Assembly (NCBI GenBank): GCA_035221665.1
Contig: CM069131.1
Span: 172,174,001 to 172,238,000, forward strand
Origin: Okamejei kenojei
Lineage: Eukaryota
Length of the DNA stretch: 64,000 bases
Reading direction: 5' to 3'
Position numbers and translations under genes: made by a program. Under the pieces are notes generated by a model. The model did no database searches. It had not been told where the DNA came from and was given only the letters and a program-made list of their open reading frames with translations. Each line of letters starts with the position of its first letter. Position 1 is the stretch's first letter. Below are positions 1 through 61,289 of the stretch, piece after piece.

Positions 1-2395
1 TGAGTACAGCAGGGGGCTGAGCACGCATTAAGGTGCTCCCGTGCTGATTGTTATCGAGGCTGACACATTTCCACCAATACGAACAGACTGTGGTCTGTGA
101 ATGAGGAGGTCGAAGATCCAATTGCAGAGGGATGCGCAGAGACCCAGTTCTGCGAGTTTGGTAACCAGCTTGGAGGGGATGATTGTGTTAAATGCCGAGC
201 TGTAGTCAATGAATACCTGACATATGAGTTTTTGTTGTCCAAGTGGTCCAGAGCGGAGTGGAGGGCCAGTGAGATCGCATCCACCGTTGATCTGTTGTGG
301 CAGTAAGCGAACTGCAGTGGGTCCAGGTTTTTGTCGAGGTAAGAGTTGATTTGCGCCATGATCAATCTCTCGAAGCACTTCATCACCACAGGCGTTAGTG
401 CCACAGGTCGATAGTCATTGAGGCACGTCACCTTGCTCTTCTTGGGCACCGGTATTATTGATGCCCTTTTGAAGCAGGTGGGAACCTCAGACCTCAGAAG
501 TGACAGGTTGAAAATGTCCGTAAAAACTCCAGCCAGTTTTTGGGTCCGCACAGGTTTTTAGAACACGACCAGGTATGCCATTAGGTCCAGACGCTTTTCG
601 AGGGTTCACCCCTCTGAAGGATTTCCTAACATCGGCCTCTGTGACTGAGACTGAAATACCATCACAGCGAATGAGGGCTCGGGAAGGCACATCGGTGTTC
701 TCCCTATCAAAGCATGCATAAAATGCATTGAGCTCATCAGGGAGTGATGTATCGCCGACATCCGAGCTGCCTCCTGGTTTCGCCTTGTAGGAGGTGATTG
801 CATTCCGTCCCCGCCACAGCTGCCGACCATCTGTCTCAACCTCCAGTTTGGAGCAGAACTCCCTTTTGGCCTTTTTGATGGCCTTACCAAGGTCGTATCT
901 GGACTTCGTGTAGACCACTGTATCATCAGACATGAATGCCCTGTGTCTGGTCTTCAGAAGAGTGCGGATCTCACAGTTTATCCAAGGTTTCTGATTGGGA
1001 AACACTCGGAAGGTTTTTGTAGGGATGCAGTCCTCCACACATTTCTTAATGAAGTCTGTAACGACTGTGGCGTATTCATTCAAATCCGTTGCTGAGTCCT
1101 TGAACATTGCCCAGTCTACAGACTCCAAACAGTCCTATAGTTGTTCCTCTGCCCACCCCCACCCACGACCAGCTCTCTACTGTCCTCACCTCTGGGGGTG
1201 CGCTCTTTAATTGCTGCCTGTAGGCAGGAAGAAGCAGCACTGCGGTATGGTCGGATTTACCGAAGTGAGGGCGAGGGATAGAACGATGGGCATTCTTGAT
1301 GGTGGTGTAGCAGTGGTCGAGGGTGTTTGGTCCTCTGGTGCAGCAGGAGACATGTTGGTGGAAGTTGGGGAGTGATTTCTTTAGGTTTTCCTTATTCAAG
1401 TCCCCAGTAATGGTGGTAAATGCCTCGGGGTAAGACGTCTGGTGTTTGTTGACCACGGCGTGCAGCTCCTCCAGTGCCAGACGGACGTCTGCCTGCGGTG
1501 GGGTGTAGACCGCGGTCAGGATGATGGAGGTGAATTCCCTCGGAAGGTAGAAGGGACGGCACTTCACTGCCAGATGTTCGAGATGTGGAGAGCAGGAGTT
1601 GGACAGGACTGCCACGTCTGAGCACCACGCAGAGTTGACTATGAAGCAGACGCCCCCTCCTCTCCCTTTCCCCGATGCCAGTGTACGGTCCATGCGGTGG
1701 ATGGAGAACCCTTCAGGCTGGACCCCTGAGTCTGGGGAGCTGGGGCTGAGCCATGTCTCTGTGAAACAGAACACAGCGCATTCCCTCAGCTCCCTTTGAT
1801 AAAGCAGTCTTGCCCTTGTCCTCCACTTTATTTTCAAGGGACTGTACATTGGCCAGTAGGATAGTAGGGAGAGGGGGCCGAAGTACCCTGCGCTTCAGTC
1901 TGACCTGAAGTCCTGCCCGCCGGCCACGTTTCCGGACACAATAGAGGCTTCCCCTTTGTTTCCAGGTACTGGGTTGACTGTATCTGCTGTTTCTGCGGAC
2001 CAGAGCTGCAACGGGAATTCCCTCACGGACGGCAGCTCCAGCTCCGTAACGAAAGGGGGTTCCCTCAGAGTCAGCAGCTCTAGCTTCATTTTTTCTGGGA
2101 TATCCAGCCTGTCGGCCCTGGAGGTCATCCTGGGGTTTCCAGGTGCCGTACCTGGGATCCTCAGTCGGGTCGGGAGTTTCTCAGCCAGCGTGGGAAAGTT
2201 TAAAGTCCGGGGCTCCCCGCAGCTGCGGGAGATCGCGAAATTTCCAACGCTTGCAGCTGCCCAAGCAGCCTGTCTGAAACGGCACCGATTACTGCCGTTT
2301 CCCTGATGCAGGTGAGTTGAGAGAAGTTGTAGGTAATTCTTTTCTGTTCTGGTGCTCTGCAAAGGTCGCCGCAGGCAGGCGCCATCTTGATATAC
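1..2395 (-). mobile_element. Rex1/Babar-clade LINE, 5' part (APE endonuclease plus N-terminal RT), frameshifted; continues left of the window
   Basis: Overlapping minus-strand ORFs give APE motifs (CFTETWL, GDLN, TRGPNTLDHCY, SDH) and RT motifs ([53 protein letters not shown]) typical of Rex1. 5' end is near CAAGATGGCGCC at 2389-2378. Confidence 0.93.
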
Positions 2396-22618: not shown

Positions 22619-23796
22619 TAACTTGTAATTTTTTTGCAATCTGGGCTTTCAGCCTTTGAGTGTCAGCCAGTGAAAAGCCACCTTGCAGCTTTTTAATCAA
22701 CAGTGGAGGAAAGACAGATAGGCAAGATTTAAGAAAAAAGGAGGGACAAAATGAAAGAGCGAAATGAAGGCTAATCTACAAATCGGGTAAACTTAATGGT
22801 AGGCAAGTAAAAGTGAAGAATAAAACTTTTTTCAAAATAATTACTACTATCATGGTTTATATTAATGTTTCTAGTTACATTTTACTCGGTGGGGAACTTA
22901 ACGCAGTTAATTGGCTCATAATAATGGGATATTCCTTGGATCTGTAGCTAATTTAAAATTGTGGCTAGATGGTGCATTTGGCCAAATATTGCCCAGTGAC
23001 AGTAATGTACAGTAATACCATACTAAAGAAAAGTGTATTAATTATTACCACCTCTGTGAAATCCTGAGCCTAGTATTCTCTCCTTAAATTAATGTTGATG
23101 TTTCATCATAAAATGTGCTCTGCTTGAATTAACTTGCTATCCAAAATTATGTGCACATTATTTTGGTTTGAGTGGAAATGTAAACTTTTTCTTCTGTTCA
23201 AATTGGGATAATTAACACTTTGCTTGAATTTGATTGAAGGTTTACCGTAATTCTTAAAGGTAACGGATCACAGAACCAGTTTTACATAGCCCGATGTTTA
23301 CATTTATGACAATTTTTTAACGTGCACTTTATCCTTGCCTTTCTCAAAGTGGATAATAATTTAGGGAAAAGAGGAATAGGCCAGTTGCCATATTACCCGT
23401 AGAATTCTTGTAGTGCTTCAGTGCCTTTATTTTCAGTGACATTTAAATGTGACGCACTTAATCCAGAAAGAGAATGTATTTCATCTAGTATGGTTAAAAT
23501 GTGTACAATACAGTATTTGCATGTGCTGGCCAAGGATGTACAGTGTGCACGACTAATTGAAACAAGATGCTTCGTCCCCTTTTTTCCCCACATCCTAATT
23601 AAGATAGAAAATAAAGGTTGACTGATGAGATGGCCTTGTTGATTTAGTTTTATTGGTTAATGATGTTCCAGAATAAGGTGTCATTGGACCATGTGTTGTA
23701 TGTATGAATAATCATGGATGTATCCATTGTCCATTGCAAATTGTTCATGCAGAGGCTTGAGAAATTATTAACCATGTTTTCCCTTTTCTCTAACAG

Positions 23797-24593
23797 AAGG
23801 AAGTCCATGGGCAGTAGTTAATAGGACTTGTCCGATTAAAGCTGAAACAAACCGTAATGTGGCTTTTCCTTTTTCAACGTGCCTAGCTGACCACGTTGGG
23901 TTACAATGGCAGATCGGCATGAATAAAACCTCTGTCTCTGGCTGGATCAGTGAGCTGAATCTCAATGAGAACTCGAGTGTTCCCTTGGCCCCTCCCACAA
24001 AACGGCATTGTAGGTCTCTCTCGGAGCCTGATGAATTGTCCCGATGCCGCTCCCCATGGAAACCCTGTAGTTCCAGGGTCTGGACTCCTGTGTCGAAACG
24101 TCGGTGCAACAGTGGTGGCAGCGCAACTTTGCAACGCTGCAACAGCCATGGAAGTGCCACACTGGAACGAAGCACAAGCATCAATATTCTCCAGCATACC
24201 AGTAAACACACGCTTTCTCTCAACAACAGTATATTTAATATCACCAGCTTCAATACTTCACCAGTACCAAGGCCCTCCTCTGCCAGCAGCGGTTTTGTAG
24301 ACAGCAGCGAGGGAAGCACATCAAGTGTTCGTTGGAACTCTACAGGACCCTTTGATTTTAACCCAAGGCGGCGGCTGTCACTTTCGCAGGAGCACATTAC
24401 AGAGACGGCAAATCTCTTGCCTTCAGCGAGCAGCTCGCCCACCTCCACGCCAGAGTTGAGCCGCCGGCAGGGATTGCTGCGATGCCGCTCCCAGCCTTGC
24501 GTGCTGAATGAAAGGAAATGTGGGCTAAAACGCAGGCGGGAGGAAGATGTCAGGTGGACACGGCCCTCTTTAGATTTCCTAAAGATGACCAGA
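23797..24593 (+). CDS. FAM53A: FAM53A large third coding exon
   Basis: Acceptor ttttctctaacag|, donor AGA|gtaagt. FAM53 motifs APPTKRHCRSLSEP, VWTPVSKRRC, PRPSSASSGFVDSSEGS, LLRCRSQPCVL and KRRREEDVRWTRPSLDFLKMT are closest to FAM53A. Confidence 0.96.
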
Positions 24594-27500
24594 GTAAGTA
24601 GGGGAATGTCTTTTTTCCAATAATGCTGATAAATGCTAACATCATAGTTTACATTTCGGCTGAAATGGTGTATCAATAGTTTATTTGCCAGAATTATGCA
24701 AGATGATGTAAGTTAGCATTTTAAACAACTCCGTTCTGAGTTCCAGCTTGGCTTGTCAAAGGTGCATTCTAGCACTCTAGTCTAATTAAAATACTTTATA
24801 TAATCCACACTTATTTTTCTAGGGTCTGGCCGTCAACATTCAGTTTAAAATGATATTGCAAAGTTTGTTCAGCTCCATGCCCTGGACCTCTGGCCCTAGT
24901 TTTATAAGTTTTAAAAAGCTTTGATCGAGGGATGTTTTATGATGCAGTTATGTACAAACTCGCAATTATGCAACAATGATGTTGACTGTAAGTGCTAATT
25001 AAGGCTATCAGCTATGTCGAAAAAGAAAATCATCACGGGGTTTGAGGCAGCTATGACGAGCATGGTGAGCTGAATGACAAGTCTTATTTGCCACAAATGT
25101 GTAGGCATTCTTTGTTCCAGTCATTCTCCTGTCTAGGAGTCGTCAGTATGCAATTTGCAAAATCTTTCTGGTAAACGAGTATGAAATGTGCAGCCATTCA
25201 ATGGATAAAATGCTCGGCTGCACAGCGGGTCTCTCCATACCACACTGTTTGAGCCCAGGGGTTCATGGGACCTGAAACCAGGCATCTTTCGGTGTGGTAA
25301 CGAGGCAAGATGTTCTTGTCTGTGGGAATAGTTCGATCTTAAATCATGCACCATAATGATGCTGTCTACTGTAGCGGTCATTGGTAGCCTGATCCACATA
25401 AGGCCTCAGAGGAGTTTAGAACAAAGCACCTTTCAAATAGATTTAAAAACATGGAAGAGATATCAGATTATCTCAAGTTGGTTTTCTCTCTCAATTTTGT
25501 GCACAAGTTGGGAAGCCATTTTGTTGGCAGTACCAGTAAATGATTCAGAGTTTGCTGGTCTCAAGCCTGTCCTCATGTTTTCTGTGTTTCAATGTTTTCT
25601 CATTGTTTAATATGCTTCTTCATCAGCAGATGATAGGAAGCATTTAGCGAAAGTGGAATGTAAGCTCCTTCCTGTTGCCTGAATTCATTTCAAGTGTTTT
25701 ATACCAATATTTTCCCTTTTTGGTACTTTGTTGGTTAGATTTTTTGCTATTCTTGCCTTCACACCTTTGATACAACATCCTACTTGTAGCTGCTGAGCTG
25801 CCTCAAATGTGGCTATTCCAAGTTTAGGCTGGGCAGCTTACTGTCACTTAAAATACCCGAAGGGAAAAATAAGTGGATGAATATGGCAATGGGATTTGCT
25901 GAAACATGATAGGAAGGATATGGAGAATAAATATGGTAGTTTAGCCTAGCTCAAAGACTTGTACTCTGAAACTACCATCTATGGAAATTGATATTTCAAG
26001 TTATTAACAATGTAGAGATTTTCTGACTCGCCACTCATCTGCTTTGTCAATATTAAGATCCACTCTGCAAATTGCTTGGCAGCCTGAGTCAAATATAGAT
26101 GGAGGAATTGGATTTCCAAACTCAGAACTACTCAGAACCACAACTGGCCACACTAAACCAAACCAAACTAAGATGATGCTAACTGCAATCGTCACCAGGC
26201 AGTGTTTTTGCTGTTGAGTGATACTGAGTTTCAGTAAACCCCAAAGTATTGAGATTAAGGAGGTAAACTTGGTGTTTGACGTTGCAGTGCGTATCTGGAA
26301 ATGACTGCAGTTGTTAGTCCAGATCAATACTGAACGGTGGCCCTGAGGCAGCATTCCAGACCCAGTCCTCCATATGCATGTGGTGGAAGTAGAGATATTT
26401 AGGCTAGGCTTAGGCTATTCTCCAGCAAAATGAAAGTTGACCATCTCTCCTCAACTGAATGAAACCTCGTGTAGGTTTAATCATTTTGGGATTGTCATTG
26501 ACCAGCACTCAATTTGTGTGCAACAACCATGCAACCATTCATAGGCTGAGGGATCATGCAGCATGCAATTTACACAAATCCCCTTCCTCTATCTGCAGAA
26601 CACAAGTTAAAAGCACAGAAAATACCATTTTAACACTTGTGTCAGAATGAAGTAGTTGTATTTGTCAGGATGGGAAAAGCTGCAATAACACTCAAGTCTC
26701 AAAATTGTGCAGGGCAAAGCCGACAGCATAATTGAATCTGTTCTTTTCCACGCCGACGTGGGCAGACATGTAGTTAAGTCTCTGTCAAATGTGCACTGTC
26801 AAAGACATGAATCCTCGTCACTTGCCGATTGGACACCATTCTGGTCCCAGAACTACATCCAATAAAACTGAGGTTCAGGGCACCAATATTTTTTTAGGAA
26901 TGGGTTATAAATGTCAGGTTTGCCTATGATTGCAATATGCAGTATTCTTTTTCACTGCCATTCAGTACTGTATTTAAATCCACTGAAATGAGTACTTGAC
27001 TGGTAAATAGAAATTGAAGTTATAAACTAAATCATTTATGTTGCTCAGGTCCATTTTACCCATTATTGCTCAAGTTGTGCCATACCTCGCTTCTCGCATC
27101 ACGAGATGGACCATGCGACTTCCTTCGGCAAGGTTACGGTTGGAAGGGACTGTTTCCTAATTAACTCATCATGTGACCGTCCTGCCGAGCTCCTGCTCCC
27201 TGGACCTGGAATAAGTGGAGTTTTAACTACCTGCCACTGGAATTTTCTTGGCCATCCTTGCAGCATGTCTACATTCCACCCCACAAACTACAGACCGCTA
27301 CATTTAGCCTTGAAATGAAGTATAGCAAGGCCTTGTTCATAATAGCTGAGAACTTTGATTAGGTACATCTCAAGAATGTGCTACCCAAATACTAGCAGCA
27401 CATCACTTGTCCTTCCAAAGTGCAAACAGCCTTGACCACTACTACACAACCATCAAAGACTCCTACTACTCACCAACCACACTTTAGAAGCTGATCATCT

Positions 27501-40290: not shown

Positions 40291-41914
40291 CCCCCACCCC
40301 CACCCCCACTCCTTCCCCACACTGCTCTCCCCAGTTCTTGTGTAATACTGTTGGAATTGGCCGGCTTCAACAAGATGTGCATGTTTCTCATCTCACAGCC
40401 GTTTTCCTGCAACAAGCCATTAGTAGCATGCCAAGGTGGCCTTGTAGTCATCTAAAATTCAGAAAGCGGTTTATCAATCAGTGTGTATGAATAAACTCTG
40501 GTTTGAAACCCAATTGTAATGTTATAGTTAATATTCTGAATCTAGTTTAGTTTGATCGTTCCATGGTGGAAAGGTTGAGAGTAAGAGTTGGACGTTTGTG
40601 GCCAGCACTACAGGAGATAATAATTGATGAGTCTTTTTTAAAGGTTAAAGTGTTGCTTTTAAAGAATCAGCTGTTTTCATTTCCTGCGGTGGTTGGCATC
40701 TGCTGGCAACGTTTAAGCCAGGTGACCTTTTTATATTTTGGAATAGAGCCATGGATGTAGATGGACATTTTAGCTGCATAAGGACATTAAAGCCTAATCT
40801 TGACTGTATTCATGGGTGGAAATCTTCAGGCAGTGATCACTGTGGGTGCAAAAACAGGAACAACAGGAAGTTCAGTTTATATTTTGGCAACCTTACGGCA
40901 AAAGATACTACATCTAATAGTAACACTCAGCACTTTGGCTGAATTTTGTAACTGAATGCAGATTGGGAGCCTTAAAACTGCTTTGCATATATTCAGTAGT
41001 AGTTTTTCCTTTGAGAAGATGCTGGATTCCTATTAACATTTACTGATCTGCCATTTATTAACATGTATTGCTTCGAATGGTTTGATACCCTCCTGATATC
41101 AGAGAGGATAGGTTAATGCTCGATAGCAAAATGTCAGTTCTGAAAACCAGTGTGGCATGCTTTAGTTATTTGTATCCCCAAAAACTTACATTTTGAATTG
41201 CAATAATCCATTCTGTACCTTCCCTTAAGCAAGCACTGGAGGCAAATAGATTTAAAATGTAAAGTTTTCCATTTAAACTTCAGTTGGAGAACTTCTTTTT
41301 CTCCCAGTGCGCAAGCCATGATGAAAACTGGTTTCCAAGTAAAGTTGACCCGAATTAAGTAAGGGAAGGGGGAAGTTAGAAAACAAACTTGCAAAGTTAC
41401 TTGTAGAAAGGTGCAAGTTAGTGAGAATAAGGATGTTTTGAGAGAATAGACTTTGTGGTAGCTTTCTGTGCTGCTTGATCCTCTGGCAAAAGCAGAAAGG
41501 TTGGGTGCTAATAATTCTAGAATTGCACAGTCAGACACTGATGGCAATTGTAATTACTAATGGTTTGTGACACCTGTCGGCTTGGATCAAATACAAAGTC
41601 ATGGTTATATGTTTTGGTTTCTACAAACTGAAAACCAGTGTTGAGATTGCACATCACGACAATTGCAAATTGCTGTTTCCCATTGTTGCAGCAACTGAAT
41701 TAAAAATTGGTGCATACGTCTCAACTTTACAAGTCTGTGGTTGCAGCATATTCGCCACAATGTGTTTTTCCTATTCATAAACTATTTGTTGCAATTTTTA
41801 CACTAGTTTACTAAGTATTATGCATTTTGTTGCTTTCAGACGTCTATCTAATATTGTCCTGGTTGTTGTCTGCCTTGAACTTTAATCTCCCAAACACATA
41901 TTACTTTCAAACCA

Positions 41915-43498
41915 CAGTGCCCTCCATAATGTTTGGGACAAAGACCCATTTATTTATTTGCCTCTCTACTCAATTTGAGATTTGTAATAGGAAAAAAATC
42001 ACATCTGGTTAAAGTGCACATTGTCGGATTTTAATGAAGGCCATTTTTATACATTTTGGTTTCACCATGTAGAAATAACAGCTGTGTTTATACATAGTCG
42101 TCTTCCCCCCCCCCCCCCCCACACACATTTCAGGGCACCATAATGTTTGGGACACTTGGCTTCACAGTTGTTTATAATTGCTCAGGTGTGTTTAATTGCC
42201 TCATTAATGCAGGTGGAAAAGAGAGCTCTCAGCATCCAGTCTTTCCTCCAGTCTTTCCATCACCTTTGGAAACTTTTATTGCTGTTTATCAACATGAGGA
42301 CAAGTTGTGCTAATGAAAGTCAAAGAAGCCATTATGAGACTGAGAAGCTAGAATAAAACTGTTAGAGACAGCAGACAACCCTTCGGCTTACCAAAATCAA
42401 CTTACTAACCACAATAGCACTGGCAGACCAAGGAAGACCATCACAGCTGATGACAGAAGAATTCTCTCTATAATTAAAGAAAAATCCCCAAACATCTGCC
42501 CGCCAGATCAGAAAGACTCTCCAGGAGTCAGGTGTGGATTTGTCAATGACAACTGTCCGCAGAAGACTTCATGAACAGAAATACAGAGGCCGCAAAAATA
42601 GGATGACCAGGTTACAGTTTGCCAAGAAGTACTTAAACGAACAACCAAAGTTCTGGAAAAAGGTCTTGTGGACAGATGAAACGAAGATTTACTTATATCA
42701 GAGTGATGGCAAGAGCAAAGTATGGAGGAGAGAAGGAACTGCCCAAGATCCAAAGCATACCACCTCATCTGTGAAACATGGTGGTGGGGGTGTTATGGCC
42801 TGGGCTTGTATGGCTGCTGAAGGTACTGGCTCACTTATCTTCATTGATGATACAACTGCTGATGGCAGTAGCATAATGAATTTTGAAGACACATCCTATC
42901 TGCTCAAGTTCAAACAAATGCCTCAAAACTCATTGGTCGGGGGTTCATTCTACAGGAAAACAGTGATCCCAAACATACTGCTAAAGCAACAAATGATTTT
43001 TTCCAAAGCTAAAAAATGGTCAATTCTTGAGTGGCCAAGTCAATCACCCGATCTGAACCCAGCCTTTTATATGCTGAAGAGAAAACTGAAGAGGACTAGC
43101 CCCCAAAACAAACATACGCTTAAGATGGCTGCAATACTGGCCTTGCAGAGCATCACCCAAGAAGACACCCAGCAACTGGTGATGTCCATGAATCGCAGAC
43201 TACAAGCATTCATTGCATGCAAAGATGATGCAACAAAATACTAAACATGACTACTTTCATTTACATGACATTGCTGTGTCCCAAACATTATGGTGCCCCA
43301 AAATGGGGGTCTATGTATAAACACTGCTGTAATTTCTACATGGTGAACCCAAAATGTTTAAAAATGGCCTTTATTGATATCTGACGATGTGCGCTTTAAC
43401 CACATGTGATTTTTTTTTCCATTACAAATCTCAAATTGTGGAGTGCAGAGGCAAATAAATAAATAATGGGTCTGTGCCAAACATTATGGAGGGCACTG
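41915..43498 (+). mobile_element. Tc1/mariner DNA transposon, IR/DR type, near full length, transposase pseudogene
   Basis: CAGTGCCCTCCATAATGTTTGG...CCAAACATTATGGAGGGCACTG|TA. ~230-bp IRs with inner repeats. VLWTDETK, VKHGGGGVMAW, WPSQSPDLNP. Confidence 0.95.
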
Positions 43499-44002
43499 TA
43501 TAGCCCAATTGCAACAGATTATATTCACTGTTTTTATTGACCTATATCATTGCTTGTTTTTTCCTCTTACTGCACACTGGCATTAAAACACTTGTTTCCT
43601 ATGCAGCCACTTATTTTTCTAACCAGGTCTGGCTAGATAACAGCACAGCTCAGAGTTATTACATGTTTAAGGGTCTGACCTTCACAGTGATAGCATTCCA
43701 AATAAATCGCAAATAGCTACAATTACAAGGTGGACAACACATTCTATCTATCTGAATAGATTATGCAGCAGAGTCCCAGTCATACAGTTTGGAAACAGAC
43801 TGCTCATCCCAACTTGCCCATGCCAGTAATTTGGAATGAATGGTCTTGATACGTGTTTCTTTCAAAAATAAAATTGTGGCCTTCCATAAATTACAAGAAC
43901 CTGCACCAAGCAATTTCCTCTTGTAAATATTTCAGGATTATTTTGCTAGTGCGTCCAGAGCTTCAATTCACTCTTAACAAGAGCAGCATTATTTTCTTTG
44001 CA

Positions 44003-44483
44003 TACATAGAAACATAGAAATTAGGTGCAGGAACAGGCCATTCGGCCCTTCGAGCCTGCACCGCCATTCAATATGATCATGGCTGATCATCCAACTCAAT
44101 ATCCTGTATCTGCCTTCTCTCCATACCCTCTGATCCCTTCAGCCACAAGGACCACATCCAACTCCCTCTTAAATATGGCCAACGAACTGGCCTCAACTAT
44201 CTTCTGTGGCAGAGAATTCCACAGATTCACCACTCTCTGTGTGAAAAACGATTTTCTCATCTCGGTCCTAAACGACTTCCCCCTTATCCTTAAACTGTGA
44301 CCCCTTGTCCTGGACTTCCCCAACATCGGGAACAATCTTCCTGCATCTAGCCTGTCCAACCCCTTAAGAATTTTGTAAGTCTCTATGAGATCACCCCTCA
44401 ATCTTCTAAATTCCAGCGAGTACAAGCCGAGTCTATCCAGTCTTTCTTCATATGGAAGTCGTGCCATCCCAGGAATCATTCTG
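44003..44483 (-). mobile_element. CR1 3' fragment, relatively young
   Basis: Open 127-aa C-terminal ORF2 (YEERLDRLGLYSLEFRRLRGDLIE) and (CATAGAAA)n tail. Confidence 0.92.
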
Positions 44484-44974
44484 GTATATGTGCATTATGA
44501 CCTTACTGCAGGTCGATGTGCCTTTGGTAAAGTTAATGACAGCTTTATCTTTATAAGGGTCCTCAGTTATCACAAGTCATCAGTTGCTGATAGTACTGCT
44601 GAGCTTTCATCTCTGCCAAGTATTACTACCAAATGCCAATTCAAATTTTCTGTTTTCCCAATTCCGTTATGGCATTGATATTTCACCATCTCCCACTTAC
44701 CTTTCCCTCCATCCCCCAAAGAAAAGTTGCAATGCTTCACTTCTGCTTGATACCTTCACACTGATGTGTAGATAGTTTTGAAAATAGGTTTGAAGTTTTT
44801 TATATTTTCATTTTATTTCCCATGCTTTTCTAAAAATGCTCTGATATTGGGGCTAGTGCTTCTGATTTTCAGGTACCTATGGTTTTACGTTTGTGGATTT
44901 TTAGGGAAGAGGTATAATGCACAATTCTCTTCAAAGACCAGCAATAATTTGGATAGTGAATCTAAGCTGTTTTT

Positions 44975-45460
44975 AGAAACATAGAAAATAGGTGCGGGAG
45001 TAGGCCAGCCCCGAGGATTTTCGGATACGGAATGGGAGGGGGAGTTGAAGTGCTGAGCCACCGGGAGGTTGGGTTGGTTAATGCGGACCGAGCTGAGGTG
45101 TTCGGCGAAACGATCGGCAAGCCTCCGCTTGGTCTCACCGATATAGATCATCTGGCATCTGGAGCAGCGGATGCAGTAGAGGAGGTTGGAGGAGGTGCAG
45201 GTGAACCTCTGTCGAACCTGGAAGGACTGCTTGGGTCCCTGAAAGGAGTGGAGGGGGGAGGTGAAGGGACAAGTGTAGCATTTCTTGCAGTTGCAAGGGA
45301 AAGTGCCCGGGAAAGGGGTTAGGCCATTCGGCTCTTCGAGCCAGCACCGCCATTCAATATGATCCCTTGATTCCGTTAGCCCTAAGAGCTATATCCAACT
45401 CTCTCTTGAAAACATCCAGTGAATTGGCTTCCACTGCCTTCTGTGGCAGAGTTCCACTTC
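44975..45460 (-). mobile_element. CR1 3' tail split by a Penelope fragment
   Basis: GAAACATAGAAAATAGGTGC...TAGGCCA|TTCGGC. Confidence 0.8.
45008..45319 (-). mobile_element. Penelope-like element internal fragment: Cys-rich linker plus GIY-YIG endonuclease
   Basis: Open frame PGTFPCNCKKCYTC...SSNLLYCIRCSRCQMIYIGETKRRLADRFAEHL...VAQHFN. 7-bp duplication TAGGCCA. Confidence 0.9.
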
Positions 45461-47005: not shown

Positions 47006-48592
47006 TTGATCAATAATGATCGTGGCACCTGATGAAGCAAATTATATAGGCAGTAGCAAACAACGCTGATATTTACAATCCAAAATTGGAGAATATTTTC
47101 TTTATGCATTTTCTAACCCCAATTTACATAAAATCCAAATAGTATTGGATAAGGATAACTGTCTCAAAGTAGTCAGATGGTAATAGAAAGGCATGTTTAT
47201 GTTTTTATCCATTTTTATAAAAATGAGAAGGTCTGGCATTGGGAATATATATGCCTAGCATTTGTTTTAAGTATACTTAATACATTTCCACAATTAACAA
47301 TCTATCTATTCCAAACCAGTAAATGACTATGTCAGATATTTGTTGCTATCTCCACAGATCCAGAGATAGTGCACTCCAGAGATTCAGATAATGCATGTAG
47401 AATTGCTGGGTGCATTCTGGCACACCTGCAAGTGTACTAAGGCAAATTCTACAGAATTGTATTAAAGAACCCGCATAACCTCAATATTGCCTCATTATTG
47501 TTTTTCTCTTTTATTGCTCTAAACGGGCTGTTGTTTTAACTTCTGTTTTGCTCACTATAAAAGCTCCAATATTCTCTATAACTCTCATGCCTAGGTTTCA
47601 CATTGAACTGACCACGTGTAAATTGAGGGAACAAAATCTTGGCCTATTTCACCGTAGATAATTATGCATGTGTTGTATTGCATAAGTCTTCATAAAATGT
47701 CAGAATTTGTACATTATCCAGTTCCCAGCAGCTGTTAGACAATTCTGAATCCTGACGACATATCTGTTGCTTCAAAATGCAAGGCAATGAAAAAACATTT
47801 GGCAGTTTTCAAGTACATTTCAGATTTTCATTTGGAGAAGATGGTGAATACTTATACCATACACAGTGTGCTTTGCACGCTGTCAACTTTGACCTGGTGA
47901 AGGAAGGTGTGATGCTGCATATACCTGTACTAGTTACCTTCAGCCAAAATTTGGGCGTGCAAACATAAATTTGCCAAATTCCTCTCGAGCCCTTGGATGG
48001 CATACATGATATTAATAATTTATCATGCATCATACCTCTGCCTTGCATAATGTTGCGTTCACTGACATGTTTCAAAAATATAACAACCCACAGTTACTCT
48101 TTGGACTAAGAGTTGTACATTAAACTGTGTAGATTGAAGTAGTTTATCATTCATCTTTGATATATACTGAGTTTGTAAGGGCAGTCATGGGATACTACTA
48201 ATTTTTGGGCAAGGGACAATAAGTGTAGGTAAGGTGTCAGTTTAGGTTGGGGATAATGGGACCTCTTGTTAAATCGCCCAATGAACCTCCCTTTTGCACG
48301 AGTGCTAATCAGAGATTAACCCAATACTTGATCCACATATCTGGCTGCATACATTGAATTGAAACCCCGATTAAATGGATGGATGAGTTGTCCTGTATGA
48401 CACAGGCTTGGCAATTAGCCAGACCGCACAGCCTGAGTTTCATTCAGCAGATGTCATTGCAGCAGCTTCCTGCTGAAGTAAACGGCTTTGAGTTTGCTTC
48501 AGGAATCAAGCAGAGATGGTGTTGAAACCAGTAAATTGACTTTTTAGATTGCAGACCTAGATTCACCACCACTTCAGGACTTTACCACTTCA

Positions 48593-49514
48593 GGATGACA
48601 CAAAGCTGGGGGAAAATATTAGCTGTGAGGAGGATGCTAGGAGACTGCTAGGTGACTTGGATAGGCTGGGTGGGTGGGCAAATGCATGGCAGATGCAGTA
48701 TAATGTGGATAAATGTGAGGTATTCCGCTTTGGTGGCAAAAACAGGAAAGTAGACAATTATCTGAATAGTGGCCAATTAGGAAGATGGGAGATGCAACGA
48801 GACCTGGGTGTCATGGTACACCAGTCATTGAAAGTAGGCATGCAGGTGCAGCAGGCAGTGAAGAAAGCGAATGGTATGTTAGCATTCATAGCAAAAGGAT
48901 TTGAGTATAGGAACGGGGAGGTTCTACTGCAGTTGTATAGGGTCTTGGTGAGACCACACCTGCAGTATTGAGTACAGTTTTGGTCTCCAAATCTGAGGAA
49001 AGACATTATTGCCATGAGTACAGAGAAGGTTCACCAGACTGATTCCTGGGATGTCAGGATTTTCATATGAAGAAAGACTGGATAGACTCGGCTTGTACTC
49101 GCTAGAATTTAGAAGATTGAGGGGGGATCTTATAGTAACTTACAAAATTCTTAAGGGGTTGGACAGGCTAGATGCAGGAAGATTGTTCCCGATGTTGGGG
49201 AAGTCCAGAACAAGGGGTCACAGTTTAAGGAAAAGGGGGAAATCTTTTAGGACCGAGATGAGAAAAACATTTTTCATACAGTGTGGTGAGTCTCTGGAAT
49301 TCTCTGCCACAGAAGGTATTTGAGGCCAATTCATTGGCTATATTTAAGAGGGAGTTAGATGTGGCCCTTGTGGCTAAAGGGATCAGGGGGTATGGAGAGA
49401 AGGCAGGTACGGGATACTGAGTTGGATGATCAGCCATGATCATATTGAATAGCGGTGCAGGCTCGATGAGCTGAATGGCCTACGCCTGCACCTATTTTCT
49501 ATGTTTCTATGTTT
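48593..49514 (+). mobile_element. CR1 3' fragment
   Basis: DDTKLG, WQMQYNVDKCEV, LVRPHL peptides and a (TTTCTATG)n tail. Confidence 0.92.
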
Positions 49515-54555: not shown

Positions 54556-56230
54556 ATTCTCTCTTCACTTCGAATGTTGGGCAGTATTTTTTTCAGACTG
54601 AATATTGATTTTTTAAAAAAAAATCCATTTAATTCTAATAAATGCTGATTTTAGTAAAGGCACCTATTCGTCCTATGACAGAATGCCAATGCATTTTAGA
54701 AGGGGAGGCAGACAAGAAAAGTTGCATCTTTTAGGTCTCTAACCTTGGATGATTTCACTTGGAGCAAATCAATGCCGTCCACAGTTTGTTTCAGCAATTC
54801 ATTTCTTGGGGTGTTATGGGAGGGGTTGCATATTGCTATGAGGAATGCTGGCAGAGGAGAAAATCTCTCTATGCTTGTTTTTATTTTTAAGTACGCCAGC
54901 TTGAAGTCCGTTGTGTGGCTATTAAACGACATCTGCATCCATTTAGTTGTGATATGCTTCATTCTCTTATAGCATGCTGGGCCTTGCAATTGAGACGCAT
55001 TTCAAGCCATAACAATTACAGTGACAGTGAGAGGGCATCACAAGGATACAAGTAATCAGAGTAAAAATATTAAGACAAAAACTCTGCATGACAATTGTTG
55101 CAATCAGCATTGTTTAATTAAAATTATAACAAGATACCTTTATGTATATATCAGCGTTAACCTCTGTTTTTGGTGCACTCGAAAGCACTTACAGTGCCCT
55201 CCATAATGTTTATTTGTCTCTGTACTACACAATTTGAGATATGTAATAGAAAAAATCTATTACAGCTGATGACAGATGAATTCTCTCGAAAATAAAGAAA
55301 AATCCCCAAACCCCTGTCTGACTGATCAGAAACGCTCTTCAGGAGTCAGGTGTGAATTTGTCAATGACCACTACCCGCTGAAGACTTCATGAATAGAAAT
55401 GCAGAGGCTAATCTGCAAGATGCAAACCACTGATTAGCTGCAAACATAGGATGGCCAGGTTACAGTTTGCCAAGAAGTACTTAAAAGATCAACCACAGTT
55501 CTGGAAAATGGTCTTGTGGACAGATGAGATGAAGATTAATTTATATCGGAGTGATGGCAAGAGCAAAGTATGGAAGAGAGGAGGAACTGCCCAAGATCCA
55601 AAGCATTCCACCTCATCTGTGAATCACAGTGGTGGGGGTGTTATGGCCTGGGCATGTATGGCTGATGAAGGTACTGGGTCGCTTATCTTCATTAATGATA
55701 CAACTGCTGATGGTAGTAGCATAATGAATTCTGAAGTGTATCAACGCATCCTATCTGCTCAAGTTCAAATGAATGTCTCAAAACTCATTGGCCGGCGGTT
55801 CATTGTACCGCAAGACAATGATCCCAAACATACTGCTAAAGCAACTAAGGAGTTTTTCAAAGCTAAATGATGGTCAATTCTTGAGTGGCCAAGTCAATCA
55901 CCCGATCTGAGCTCATTTGAGCATGCCTTTTATATGCTGAAGAGAAAACTGAAGGGGACTAGCCCCCAAAACAAGCATAAGCTAAAGATGGCTGTAATAC
56001 AGGCCTGACATGGCATCACCAGAAAAGACACCCAGCAACTGGTGATGGCCATGAATCACAGACTTCAGGCAGTCATTACATGCAAAGGATATGAAACAAA
56101 ATACTAAACATGAATACTTTCATTTACATGACATTGCTGTGTCCCAAACATTATGGTGCCCTGAAATGGGGGGACTATGTATAAATACTGCTGTCTATGT
56201 ATAAATACTACATGGTGAAACCTAAATGTA

Positions 56231-56364
56231 TCTTCTTGCATAGGGTGTGCACAGCCTAAAGTTGTAAAATAACTTGTTCTGTTTGATCTTCCGTTTGTGC
56301 ACACCGGGTTGATTGCATTCGTTGAAACAGGGTGGACCGCGTGAAGGTTGTAATCTCCCACCCC
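56231..56364 (-). mobile_element. 134-bp retroposon with an HDV-like ribozyme head (copy 1), inserted in the Tc1 right IR
   Basis: TSD ACC(T/A)AAATGTA at 56220-56230 and 56365-56375. GAA-type tail. Second copy at 61068-61197. Confidence 0.88.
56311..56364 (-). ncRNA. Predicted minimal HDV-like (CPEB3-like) self-cleaving ribozyme
   Basis: P1 GGGGUGG/CCACCCU (G1-U wobble), P2 GAUUACA/UGCAAUC, P3 ACC/GGU, L3 UUCACGC, GU, J4/2 ACGAA. Confidence 0.8.
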
Positions 56365-56519
56365 ACCAAAATGTATACAAATGGCCTTTATTAAAATCTG
56401 ACAATGTGCACTTTAACCAGATGTGATGATTTCTATTACAAATCTCATTGTGGAGTACAGAGGCAAATAAATAAATGATGGGTATTTGTCCCAAACATTA
56501 TGGAGGGCATTGTAAGTAA

Positions 56520-60830: not shown

Positions 60831-61067
60831 TGTTCGCTGCTCTCCCTCAATTTCCCTTTCCATCCCATGGCCGTAATCAGACAAACATGCTTCTCCCTCT
60901 TGTACATGTGCATAGGGGCTGCGGTAGGAATGTGGGACAGGAATTGTTGGGGGTAAACCTTGGACATGTTTAAACATCAGAGTACTAACATTAAAAAACC
61001 AGCCACTTCATTTTGAATTGACCACCATTTTGGTGTACTGCATATTGTATTGCATGCATTTTCCTGT

Positions 61068-61197
61068 CTTCTTTCGTGTGGCGTGCACAGCCTAAAGTTG
61101 TAGGACAACTTGTTCTATTTGATCTTCCGTTTGTGCATGTCGAGTTGATTGCATGTCTAAACAGGGCGGACCACGTGAAGGTTGCGATCTTCCACCC
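61068..61197 (-). mobile_element. 130-bp retroposon with an HDV-like ribozyme head (copy 2)
   Basis: Perfect 13-bp TSD TGCATTTTCCTGT at 61055-61067 and 61198-61210. Colinear with 56231-56364. Confidence 0.9.
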
Positions 61198-61289
61198 TGC
61201 ATTTTCCTGTAGTTTTCTTTTACTTATACTTGTTTTATTATTTTTGCGATCCAACCCTAACTTAAAAGATTTTGTTTGACCTTAAGCTT

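What the first reader, a model, noticed from the sequence alone, without database searches (positions are those of the whole stretch)
56220..56375. Tiny retroposon whose head is an HDV-like self-cleaving ribozyme
Seen (minus strand): GGGGUGG-GA-GAUUACA-ACC-UUCACGC-GGU-CCACCCU-GUUUCA-ACGAA-UGCAAUC. This is the nested double-pseudoknot order P1-P2-P3-L3-P3'-P1'-J4/2-P2'. It has a G1-U wobble and a C75-equivalent at 56321. The element's 5' end, fixed by the TSD, falls exactly on the predicted cleavage site G1. About 80 nt with a stem-loop and a GAA tail follow. Known: HDV-like ribozymes trim the 5' ends of R2, RTE and ingi/L1Tc RNAs and their short derivatives. Inferred: a promoterless ~130-nt SINE-like parasite that cuts itself out of host read-through transcripts and is reverse-transcribed by a Vingi/ingi- or RTE-type LINE. 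I do not know of such a family described in cartilaginous fish.
Basis: partly seen in the sequence, partly recalled or inferred. Interest (0 to 1): 0.9.

Follow-up and report, generated by a model that had tools for sequence, protein, structure and literature searches.

The report
Tiny ribozyme-headed jumping element
A 134-letter jumping element with over ten thousand copies is a cut-down version of a 3-kb retrotransposon and begins with a very small, probably self-cutting RNA; related elements begin with an RNA almost identical to the human CPEB3 ribozyme, hinting that this ribozyme came from such an element.

Summary
Confirmed. Minus-strand 56364-56231 is a 134-nt retroposon with an 11-nt target-site duplication, inserted in a Tc1-like transposon whose other copies show the empty site. 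Four 25-nt head patterns give 10,066 exact genome matches; 77 of 88 copies picked on the 3' end alone start at nt 1-5. I found the driver: a 3.04-kb APE+RT LINE without RNase H (Vingi type) sharing nt 1-79 and the last 42 nt. So it is an internally deleted LINE (like NARTc, RIME, R2 SIDE, Vingi-1_EE derivatives), a known kind, not a true SINE. Nt 1-54 fit an HDV-like fold lacking P4; related LINEs carry the fold with compensatory changes at 14 of 18 pair positions and an invariant catalytic C. Cleavage and 'promoterless' are untested; this copy has a P2 mismatch. Beyond the known kind: a P4-less ribozyme in an animal genome; 9 of 13 LINE 5' inversions start at nt 70-78; and Vingi 5' ends nearly match the mammalian CPEB3 ribozyme (Rfam 55.6 bits), suggesting its origin. 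The scan earlier noted a different, fungal ribozyme-headed retroposon.

The parts
56231..56364 (-). Whole short element, 134 nt, G1 at 56364, ends in a short GAA tail
56311..56364 (-). Predicted 54-nt HDV-like ribozyme without P4 (P1 56364-56358/56335-56329; P2 56355-56349/56317-56311, one mismatch in this copy; P3 56348-56346/56338-56336; L3 56345-56339; 5-nt loop in place of P4 56326-56322)
56321..56321 (-). C44, equivalent of the catalytic C75 (HDV) / C57 (CPEB3)
   Evidence: invariant column in alignment A2; register of Rfam alignment; role of C75/C57 from PMC9901934 passages
56286..56310 (-). Rest of the LINE-derived 5' part (nt 55-79); nt 70-78 is the hot spot where LINE 5' inversions start
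56273..56285 (-). About 13-nt linker at the deletion junction, partly a short duplication of the preceding letters (by eye)
   Evidence: (table 5c)
56231..56272 (-). LINE-derived 3' part (nt 93-134): last codons and stop codon (56258-56256) of the LINE ORF, 3' UTR and GAA tail
56365..56375 (-). Target-site duplication, 5' copy
56220..56230 (-). Target-site duplication, 3' copy (1 mismatch)
55192..56512 (+). Host Tc1/mariner-like DNA transposon into which the element inserted
61066..61198 (-). Second, older copy of the same family with a 12-nt duplication; two letters after C44 deleted, so probably dead

Best explanation
The element is a non-autonomous, internally deleted derivative of a Vingi-type LINE of the same genome. 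It keeps the LINE's first ~79 nt and last ~42 nt (shown). A copy transcribed from upstream folds its first 54 nt into a P4-less HDV-like double pseudoknot and cuts 5' of G1 using C44, leaving an RNA that starts at G1 (inferred from structure, covariation and the known chemistry of the family). The LINE's APE-RT protein binds the shared 3' end and copies the RNA by target-primed reverse transcription, giving 7-17-nt duplications and a GAA tail (products shown, steps from established non-LTR biology). The protein probably also holds the RNA just behind the ribozyme (nt 70-78) near the second DNA nick, which would explain the inversion hot spot and why both ends are kept (inferred). Most genomic copies, probably including this one with its P2 mismatch, are decaying fossils.
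For: Full-length LINE L114/L122, 3,044 nt, starts at the same G1 and ends in the same tail; APE and RT domains, no RNase H hit; shared ends aligned; contigs of three public runs join the two ends skipping about 2,930 nt. 77 of 88 short copies chosen on the 3' end start at nt 1-5, 73 at nt 1-3; in 58 of 69 with a duplication call it ends within -2..+3 of G1. Related LINEs: descriptor hits in 7 of 24 upstream regions, 0 of 24 with C changed to A, G or U, 0 of 24 reverse strands, 0 of 24 ORF-internal regions. Ten heads: 166 of 169 cells paired, two-sided changes at 14 of 18 positions. Frequent non-decay variants in nt 1-54 sit at nt 8, 32, 42, 45, all free or pair-keeping. Genome-wide at nt 44-45: CG 3,165, CT 5,467, CA 1,004, TG 430: the neighbour varies, loss of C44 is rarest. 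Of 9 copies with one extra 5' letter none has G, the mark expected from a cap.
Against: No cleavage assay and no RNA start data. Rfam support for the family's own head is below threshold. The ten heads were selected for fitting the fold, so their pairing is partly circular; 17 of 24 upstream regions missed the relaxed descriptor (some end too early, are truncated, or belong to the RNase H-bearing outgroup; four were recovered by the strict descriptor, Rfam or eye). A 134-nt RNA is often copied in full whatever makes its 5' end. 11 of 88 copies are 5'-truncated. Three of the four tolerated changes are at CpG sites, and CA:TG asymmetry may have other causes. Only 21 of 77 copies keep every pair and core letter. 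G37-U38 could pair with A43-C44 around a UUCG loop and hide the catalytic C (by eye).
Confidence: 0.8

Rival explanations
1. Same bipartite Vingi derivative, but G1 is set mainly by an internal promoter in the first ~79 nt; the ribozyme, having lost P4, is weak or vestigial, or works beside the promoter as in L1Tc.
For: The 77-nt head of L1Tc/NARTc and ingi/RIME acts as both promoter and ribozyme (PMC4035085 passages); the shared 5' part here is about the same length and runs 25 nt beyond the ribozyme; all related heads parsed keep a P4 region of 16-35 nt while this one has 7.
Against: P4-less HDV-like ribozymes are active in vitro and C-dependent (PMC10879173 passages); masters changed only tolerated positions; no extra 5' G in 9 of 9 single-letter additions.
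Confidence: 0.17
2. A conventional Pol III SINE (tRNA-like head) that only resembles a ribozyme by chance.
For: Size, copy number and a UUCGA motif reminiscent of a tRNA T-loop (by eye).
Against: ARAGORN finds no tRNA in 5 of 5 loci; the head is the 5' end of a protein-coding LINE; related LINE heads covary in the HDV fold.
Confidence: 0.03

Closest known systems
Vingi-1_EE non-autonomous derivatives and bipartite non-autonomous LINEs (Kojima 2018, PMC5786205, passages and supplement search)
   Same: Only the 5' and 3' ends of a Vingi LINE, made by internal deletion; the paper names RTE, Ingi, Vingi and R2 as the clades that do this.
   Different: [quoted passage not shown] The 2011 Vingi paper was not held.
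NARTc/L1Tc, RIME/ingi, NARTco, SIDER (trypanosomatids) and R2 SIDEs (PMC4035085, passages; PMC3414825, listing only)
   Same: Short deletion derivatives headed by the parent's HDV-like ribozyme, several shown to cleave.
   Different: 77-nt heads with P4; parents encode RNase H or are site-specific R2; this head is 54 nt, has no P4, and sits in an animal genome at over 10,000 copies.
Minimal HDV-like (drz-Mtgn, theta) ribozymes (PMC10879173, passages)
   Same: Double pseudoknot lacking P4, catalytic C in J4/2.
   Different: Reported from metagenomes and gut phages beside tRNAs; that paper's search of human, mouse, protist and bacterial genomes gave 12 bacterial theta hits only. Here the context is a retroposon 5' end.
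Mammalian CPEB3 ribozyme (Rfam RF00622)
   Same: Identical L3, J1/4 and J4/2 letters to the main short-element type (Rfam consensus); a relative's 5' end scores 55.6 bits, gathering 35.
   Different: CPEB3 is a single intronic copy with P4 and other P1/P2/P3 letters; the window's own head does not hit RF00622.

Membership tests
Bipartite non-autonomous LINE (SIDE) | 5' end shared with an autonomous LINE of the same genome | tested here: met
   nt 8-79 align to LINE head L093; L114 starts at G1
Bipartite non-autonomous LINE (SIDE) | 3' end and tail shared with that LINE; coding region deleted | tested here: met
   nt 93-134 align to LINE 3' end incl. stop codon; joints skipping about 2,930 nt
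Bipartite non-autonomous LINE (SIDE) | Target-site duplications and microsatellite tail of TPRT | tested here: met
   duplication called in 69 of 77 full-length copies; median 12 nt among the 58 that abut G1; empty sites
Vingi clade (partner LINE) | Compact single-ORF APE+RT element of about 3 kb without RNase H (definition from PMC13708176 passages) | tested here: met
   3,044 nt; Pfam APE and RT, no RNase H in 7 of 7 fragments nor in intact 75%-identical P0001, 1,019 aa
Vingi clade (partner LINE) | RT phylogeny: groups with named Vingi, sister to RNase H-bearing Ingi | tested here: inconclusive
   L100 lies in a 26-row clade (100/100) apart from 6 rows, two of which were shown to carry RNase H; no named Vingi protein was available; the link to the name rests on L174's head resembling Vingi-2_Gav as printed in a supplement (by eye); midpoint root
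HDV-like ribozyme | Nested double pseudoknot P1/P2/P3/P1.1 in the right order | tested here: met
   descriptor parse of L009 and window copy; single C22-G37 P1.1 pair as in the CPEB3 type (recalled)
HDV-like ribozyme | Conserved core (L3 U20/G25, catalytic C, J4/2 A) with covarying helices | tested here: met
   invariant columns C18, T20, C22, G25, G28, C44, A46 in 12 rows; 14 of 18 positions with two-sided change; controls 0 of 24
HDV-like ribozyme | Reaches an Rfam gathering score | tested here: not met
   15.9 bits against 44 for L004; no hit for the window copy. The models include P4, which this head lacks
HDV-like ribozyme | Mg2+- and C-dependent self-cleavage 5' of G1 | not testable with these tools
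   needs an in vitro assay
tRNA-derived SINE (SINE2) | tRNA-derived head with Pol III boxes | tested here: not met
   0 tRNA genes in 5 of 5 loci; head is LINE-derived

The most novel reading that the evidence does not exclude
Vingi retrotransposons as a clade start with HDV-like ribozymes; this family has shrunk its ribozyme to an active 54-nt P4-less form and seeded thousands of intact copies in one animal genome; and the mammalian CPEB3 ribozyme is the exapted 5' end of an ancient Vingi element. Basis for the last point: the head of Vingi-type contig L174 matches the Rfam CPEB3 consensus at 35 of its first 37 letters; Vingi-2_Gav nt 2-74, printed in the supplement of PMC5786205, matches it at 38 of 40 letters through the start of P4 and 13 of 13 after it (compared by eye); the helix letters involved vary freely among other heads, so convergence is unlikely; a Vingi fossil (X12_LINE) is listed for the human genome. 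No held paper contains both 'CPEB3' and 'Vingi'.
Probability: 0.6. Interest if true: 0.85.

Novelty: new variant of a known kind. Interest (0 to 1): 0.66.

Why it matters
The element is a 134-nt natural minimal donor for a Vingi enzyme, a class now being engineered for gene insertion with 5' and 3' UTR donors; it shows which end sequences suffice, and the inversion hot spot points to where the protein grips the 5' RNA. If it cleaves, it places minimal P4-less HDV-like ribozymes, so far reported from phages and metagenomes, in an animal genome by the thousand, where sense-strand intronic copies could cut host pre-mRNAs. The near identity of Vingi heads with the CPEB3 ribozyme makes the origin of the best-studied human ribozyme directly testable.

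Tried and rejected
DNA search of the own genome with the 62-nt 3' end returned nothing because common words are skipped; a pattern was used instead. Rfam on the window copy: four chance hits, no ribozyme. Sequencing runs: no RNA holder listed; three contig runs of one study, probably DNA, so nothing on expression or RNA ends; whether their organism is the window's species is unknown. Covariation inside the family: none among frequent variants, rejected as a test. tRNA head: none. The bacterial promoter scan is irrelevant to this host and not used. MAFFT misregistered P2' in L138, so covariation was counted on descriptor-registered segments and L138, L133, L146 (end of contig) and L175 (duplicate of L174) were left out. 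RTE as partner: rejected, the partner groups with 1,000-aa single-ORF elements and apart from RTE-type architecture only by domain and similarity evidence; no RTE row was in the tree. Ruminski 2011 and Kojima 2011 were not held, so what they say about Vingi ribozymes is unseen. Paper searches; none of the listings names this family or a Vingi ribozyme; Dfam, Repbase and patents could not be searched. Earlier scan notes: no look-alike sequence, nothing for this genome or for CPEB3.

Full report
Observation. An 11-nt duplication with one mismatch (56375-56365, 56230-56220) brackets 134 nt. The element interrupts a Tc1-like transposon (55192-56512), and both other window copies of that transposon show the site once, so the insertion and its ends are fixed independently of any RNA model. 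A second, more decayed copy lies at 61066-61198. The nearest coding exon found belongs to the FAM53 family, on the opposite strand 32 kb away. I did not test the host taxon.

Copy number and 5' end. The window copy drew 2,607 candidates, 40 scored, at 90-93% identity apart from itself. A 29-nt 3' pattern matches 2,298 places exactly, the reversed control 0. Four 25-nt head patterns match 3,165 + 1,004 + 430 + 5,467 = 10,066 places, a lower bound; 28 of 88 sampled copies match one exactly, which extrapolates roughly to 30,000. To avoid selecting for full length I took the first 90 of the 100 listed 3'-pattern places: 2 are LINE ends, 88 are short elements; 73 start at nt 1-3, 4 at nt 4-5, 11 deeper. 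A duplication was called in 69 of the 77, ending within -2..+3 of G1 in 58 (median 12 nt). The largest subtype (CT at nt 44-45) is under-sampled by this pattern.

The driver. A flank of locus L024 held a coding 3' end sharing the element's last letters, stop codon included. Two searches walked it upstream (758 and 48 candidates). L114/L122 is a full-length 3,044-nt copy with its own duplication that starts at the same G1. Its fragments hit APE and RT families and not RNase H; the best homologue is an intact 1,019-aa protein, 75% identical, on a 3.3-kb contig, and most of the 120 listed are about 1,000 aa on 3-4-kb contigs. In an RT tree of 32 rows the LINE sits in a 26-row clade (100/100) apart from six rows, two of which carry RNase H. 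This fits the definition of Vingi (PMC13708176, passages), though no named Vingi protein was in the tree. The short element aligns to the LINE over nt 8-79 and 93-134, and contigs of three public runs join the LINE's ends skipping about 2,930 nt. It is therefore an internally deleted LINE.

The ribozyme. Nt 1-54 parse as P1 (7 bp), GA, P2 (7 bp), P3 (3 bp), a 7-nt L3, G37-U38, five letters where P4 would be, then C44-N-A-A. Rfam is lukewarm: nothing for the window copy, 15.9 bits over exactly nt 1-54 for L004. Stronger evidence comes from relatives in metagenome contigs (75 loci). Of 24 with an N-terminal match, 7 upstream regions (6 distinct) fit a relaxed descriptor, against 0 of 24 for each changed catalytic letter, the reverse strand and ORF-internal DNA; L142 fitted the strict descriptor, and L131 and L170 gave weak Rfam HDV-type hits. 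In ten registered heads 166 of 169 cells pair and 14 of 18 positions change on both sides; the set is selected for fit, which the controls only partly offset. All nine relatives keep 16-35 letters for J1/4+P4; this family has 7. Inside the genome the frequent variants that look inherited from masters are nt 8 (J1/2), 32 (wobble to Watson-Crick), 42 (loop) and 45. Nt 45 is U in 13 of 14 LINE heads, and G, A or U in short copies, while C44 loss stays lowest (430 TG against 1,004 CA; 1 against 11 among 29 top hits). That this position is free in HDV ribozymes is recalled, and agrees with G/U/C variation across. CpG decay confounds this partly. 21 of 77 copies keep every pair and core letter; the window copy does not.

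Mechanism. Shown: shared ends, duplications, tail, fixed start, conserved fold. Inferred: cleavage at G1 from upstream transcripts and copying in trans by the LINE protein. Of 9 copies with a single extra 5' letter none has G, which a reverse-transcribed cap would leave: a weak sign of an uncapped RNA. An internal promoter cannot be excluded, since the homologous L1Tc head does both jobs (PMC4035085, passages).

Inversion hot spot. Among 60 LINE loci (57 distinct places) 13 have an inverted 5' segment (L100 and L110, ambiguous or of another kind, left out). Nine start at nt 70-78 and run back to nt 1-19, then jump far downstream; the other four start at 229, 297, 357 and 831. The inverted heads carry the LINE's U45, so they come from LINE RNA. 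A duplication around the whole insert was clear in 5 of the 9, weak in 1, not found in 3, with 2-4-letter microhomology by eye. This is twin priming (PMC2912911, passages) with a preferred second priming site just behind the ribozyme, suggesting the protein holds that RNA segment at the second nick. One paper search listed four papers, none by title on this.

Comparison with what is known. [quoted passage not shown] NARTc, NARTco and SIDER heads cleave in vitro. P4-less ribozymes are described from metagenomes and phages (PMC10879173, passages). So the kind is known; the clade, the minimal head and the copy number are the variant. Two key papers were not held, and repeat databases and patents could not be searched, so prior annotation is quite possible.

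CPEB3 lead. The 5' end of contig elements L174/L175 (one element, Vingi-type ORF behind it) scores 55.6 bits on the mammalian CPEB3 ribozyme model (gathering 35, E 2.2e-12). The supplement of PMC5786205 (term search, 6 places read) prints the 5' ends of Vingi-2_Gav, Vingi-4_Crp, Vingi-1_BF, a stretch of Vingi-2_SPur and SINE2-1_AMi; by eye Vingi-2_Gav matches the Rfam consensus at 38 of 40 and 13 of 13 letters outside the P4 loop. The paper's main text has no 'CPEB3'; no held paper has both words; term searches in PMC8233481, PMC10919898 and PMC8256844 (passages only) gave no retroposon origin for CPEB3, and the last says such ribozymes may spread by retrotransposition. A bioRxiv ribozyme survey (passages) has no 'Vingi' or 'shark'. 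The window's own head shares only the core with CPEB3.

Verdict. A real, ordinary-in-kind Vingi deletion derivative with an unusually small, probably active HDV-like head; interest rests on the minimal ribozyme, the inversion hot spot and the CPEB3 link.

Noticed in passing
L174:3117-3190 and L175:2199-2272; supplement of PMC5786205: Vingi-type 5' ends nearly identical to the mammalian CPEB3 ribozyme (55.6 bits on RF00622), suggesting CPEB3's ribozyme is an exapted Vingi head.
   Followed up: partly
L063, L066, L068, L079, L084, L089, L095, L103, L117 (5' junctions): Truncated LINE copies carry an inverted ribozyme head starting at nt 70-78: a twin-priming hot spot.
   Followed up: partly
L133:423-566: A relative's head looks HDV-like by eye but with a very long insertion in L3 and a bulged P1; missed by both descriptors.
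   Followed up: no
window 56306-56296 and 56254-56244 (nt 59-69 and 111-121): In the short RNA the LINE's 5' and 3' parts pair into an 11-bp stem (fold of L004); both arms share a 6-nt palindrome, so part may be chance. The arms are 3 kb apart in the LINE.
   Followed up: partly
L107:345-484 and L109:1334-1472: Short elements inserted into copies of their own parent LINE, with duplications.
   Followed up: no
L223, just upstream of G1: A piece matching the element's middle (about nt 72-92) is joined directly to G1 with no duplication found, possibly a template jump.
   Followed up: no
L050 and L057: Two independent copies truncated by 3 nt have near-identical target duplications that contain a match to the P1 3' strand.
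   Followed up: no
window 23772-24623 (+): Large exon of a FAM53-family gene (Pfam PF15242); both window copies of the element are on the opposite strand.
   Followed up: no
window 55192-56512, 42440-43500, 41914-42155: Three copies or pieces of a Tc1/mariner-like transposon.
   Followed up: partly
window 51-1894 (-), 44096-44494, 44885-45388, 48561-48971: Fragments of other retroelement ORFs (endonuclease/RT-like, CR1-like and GIY-YIG-like by eye), unrelated to the finding.
   Followed up: no
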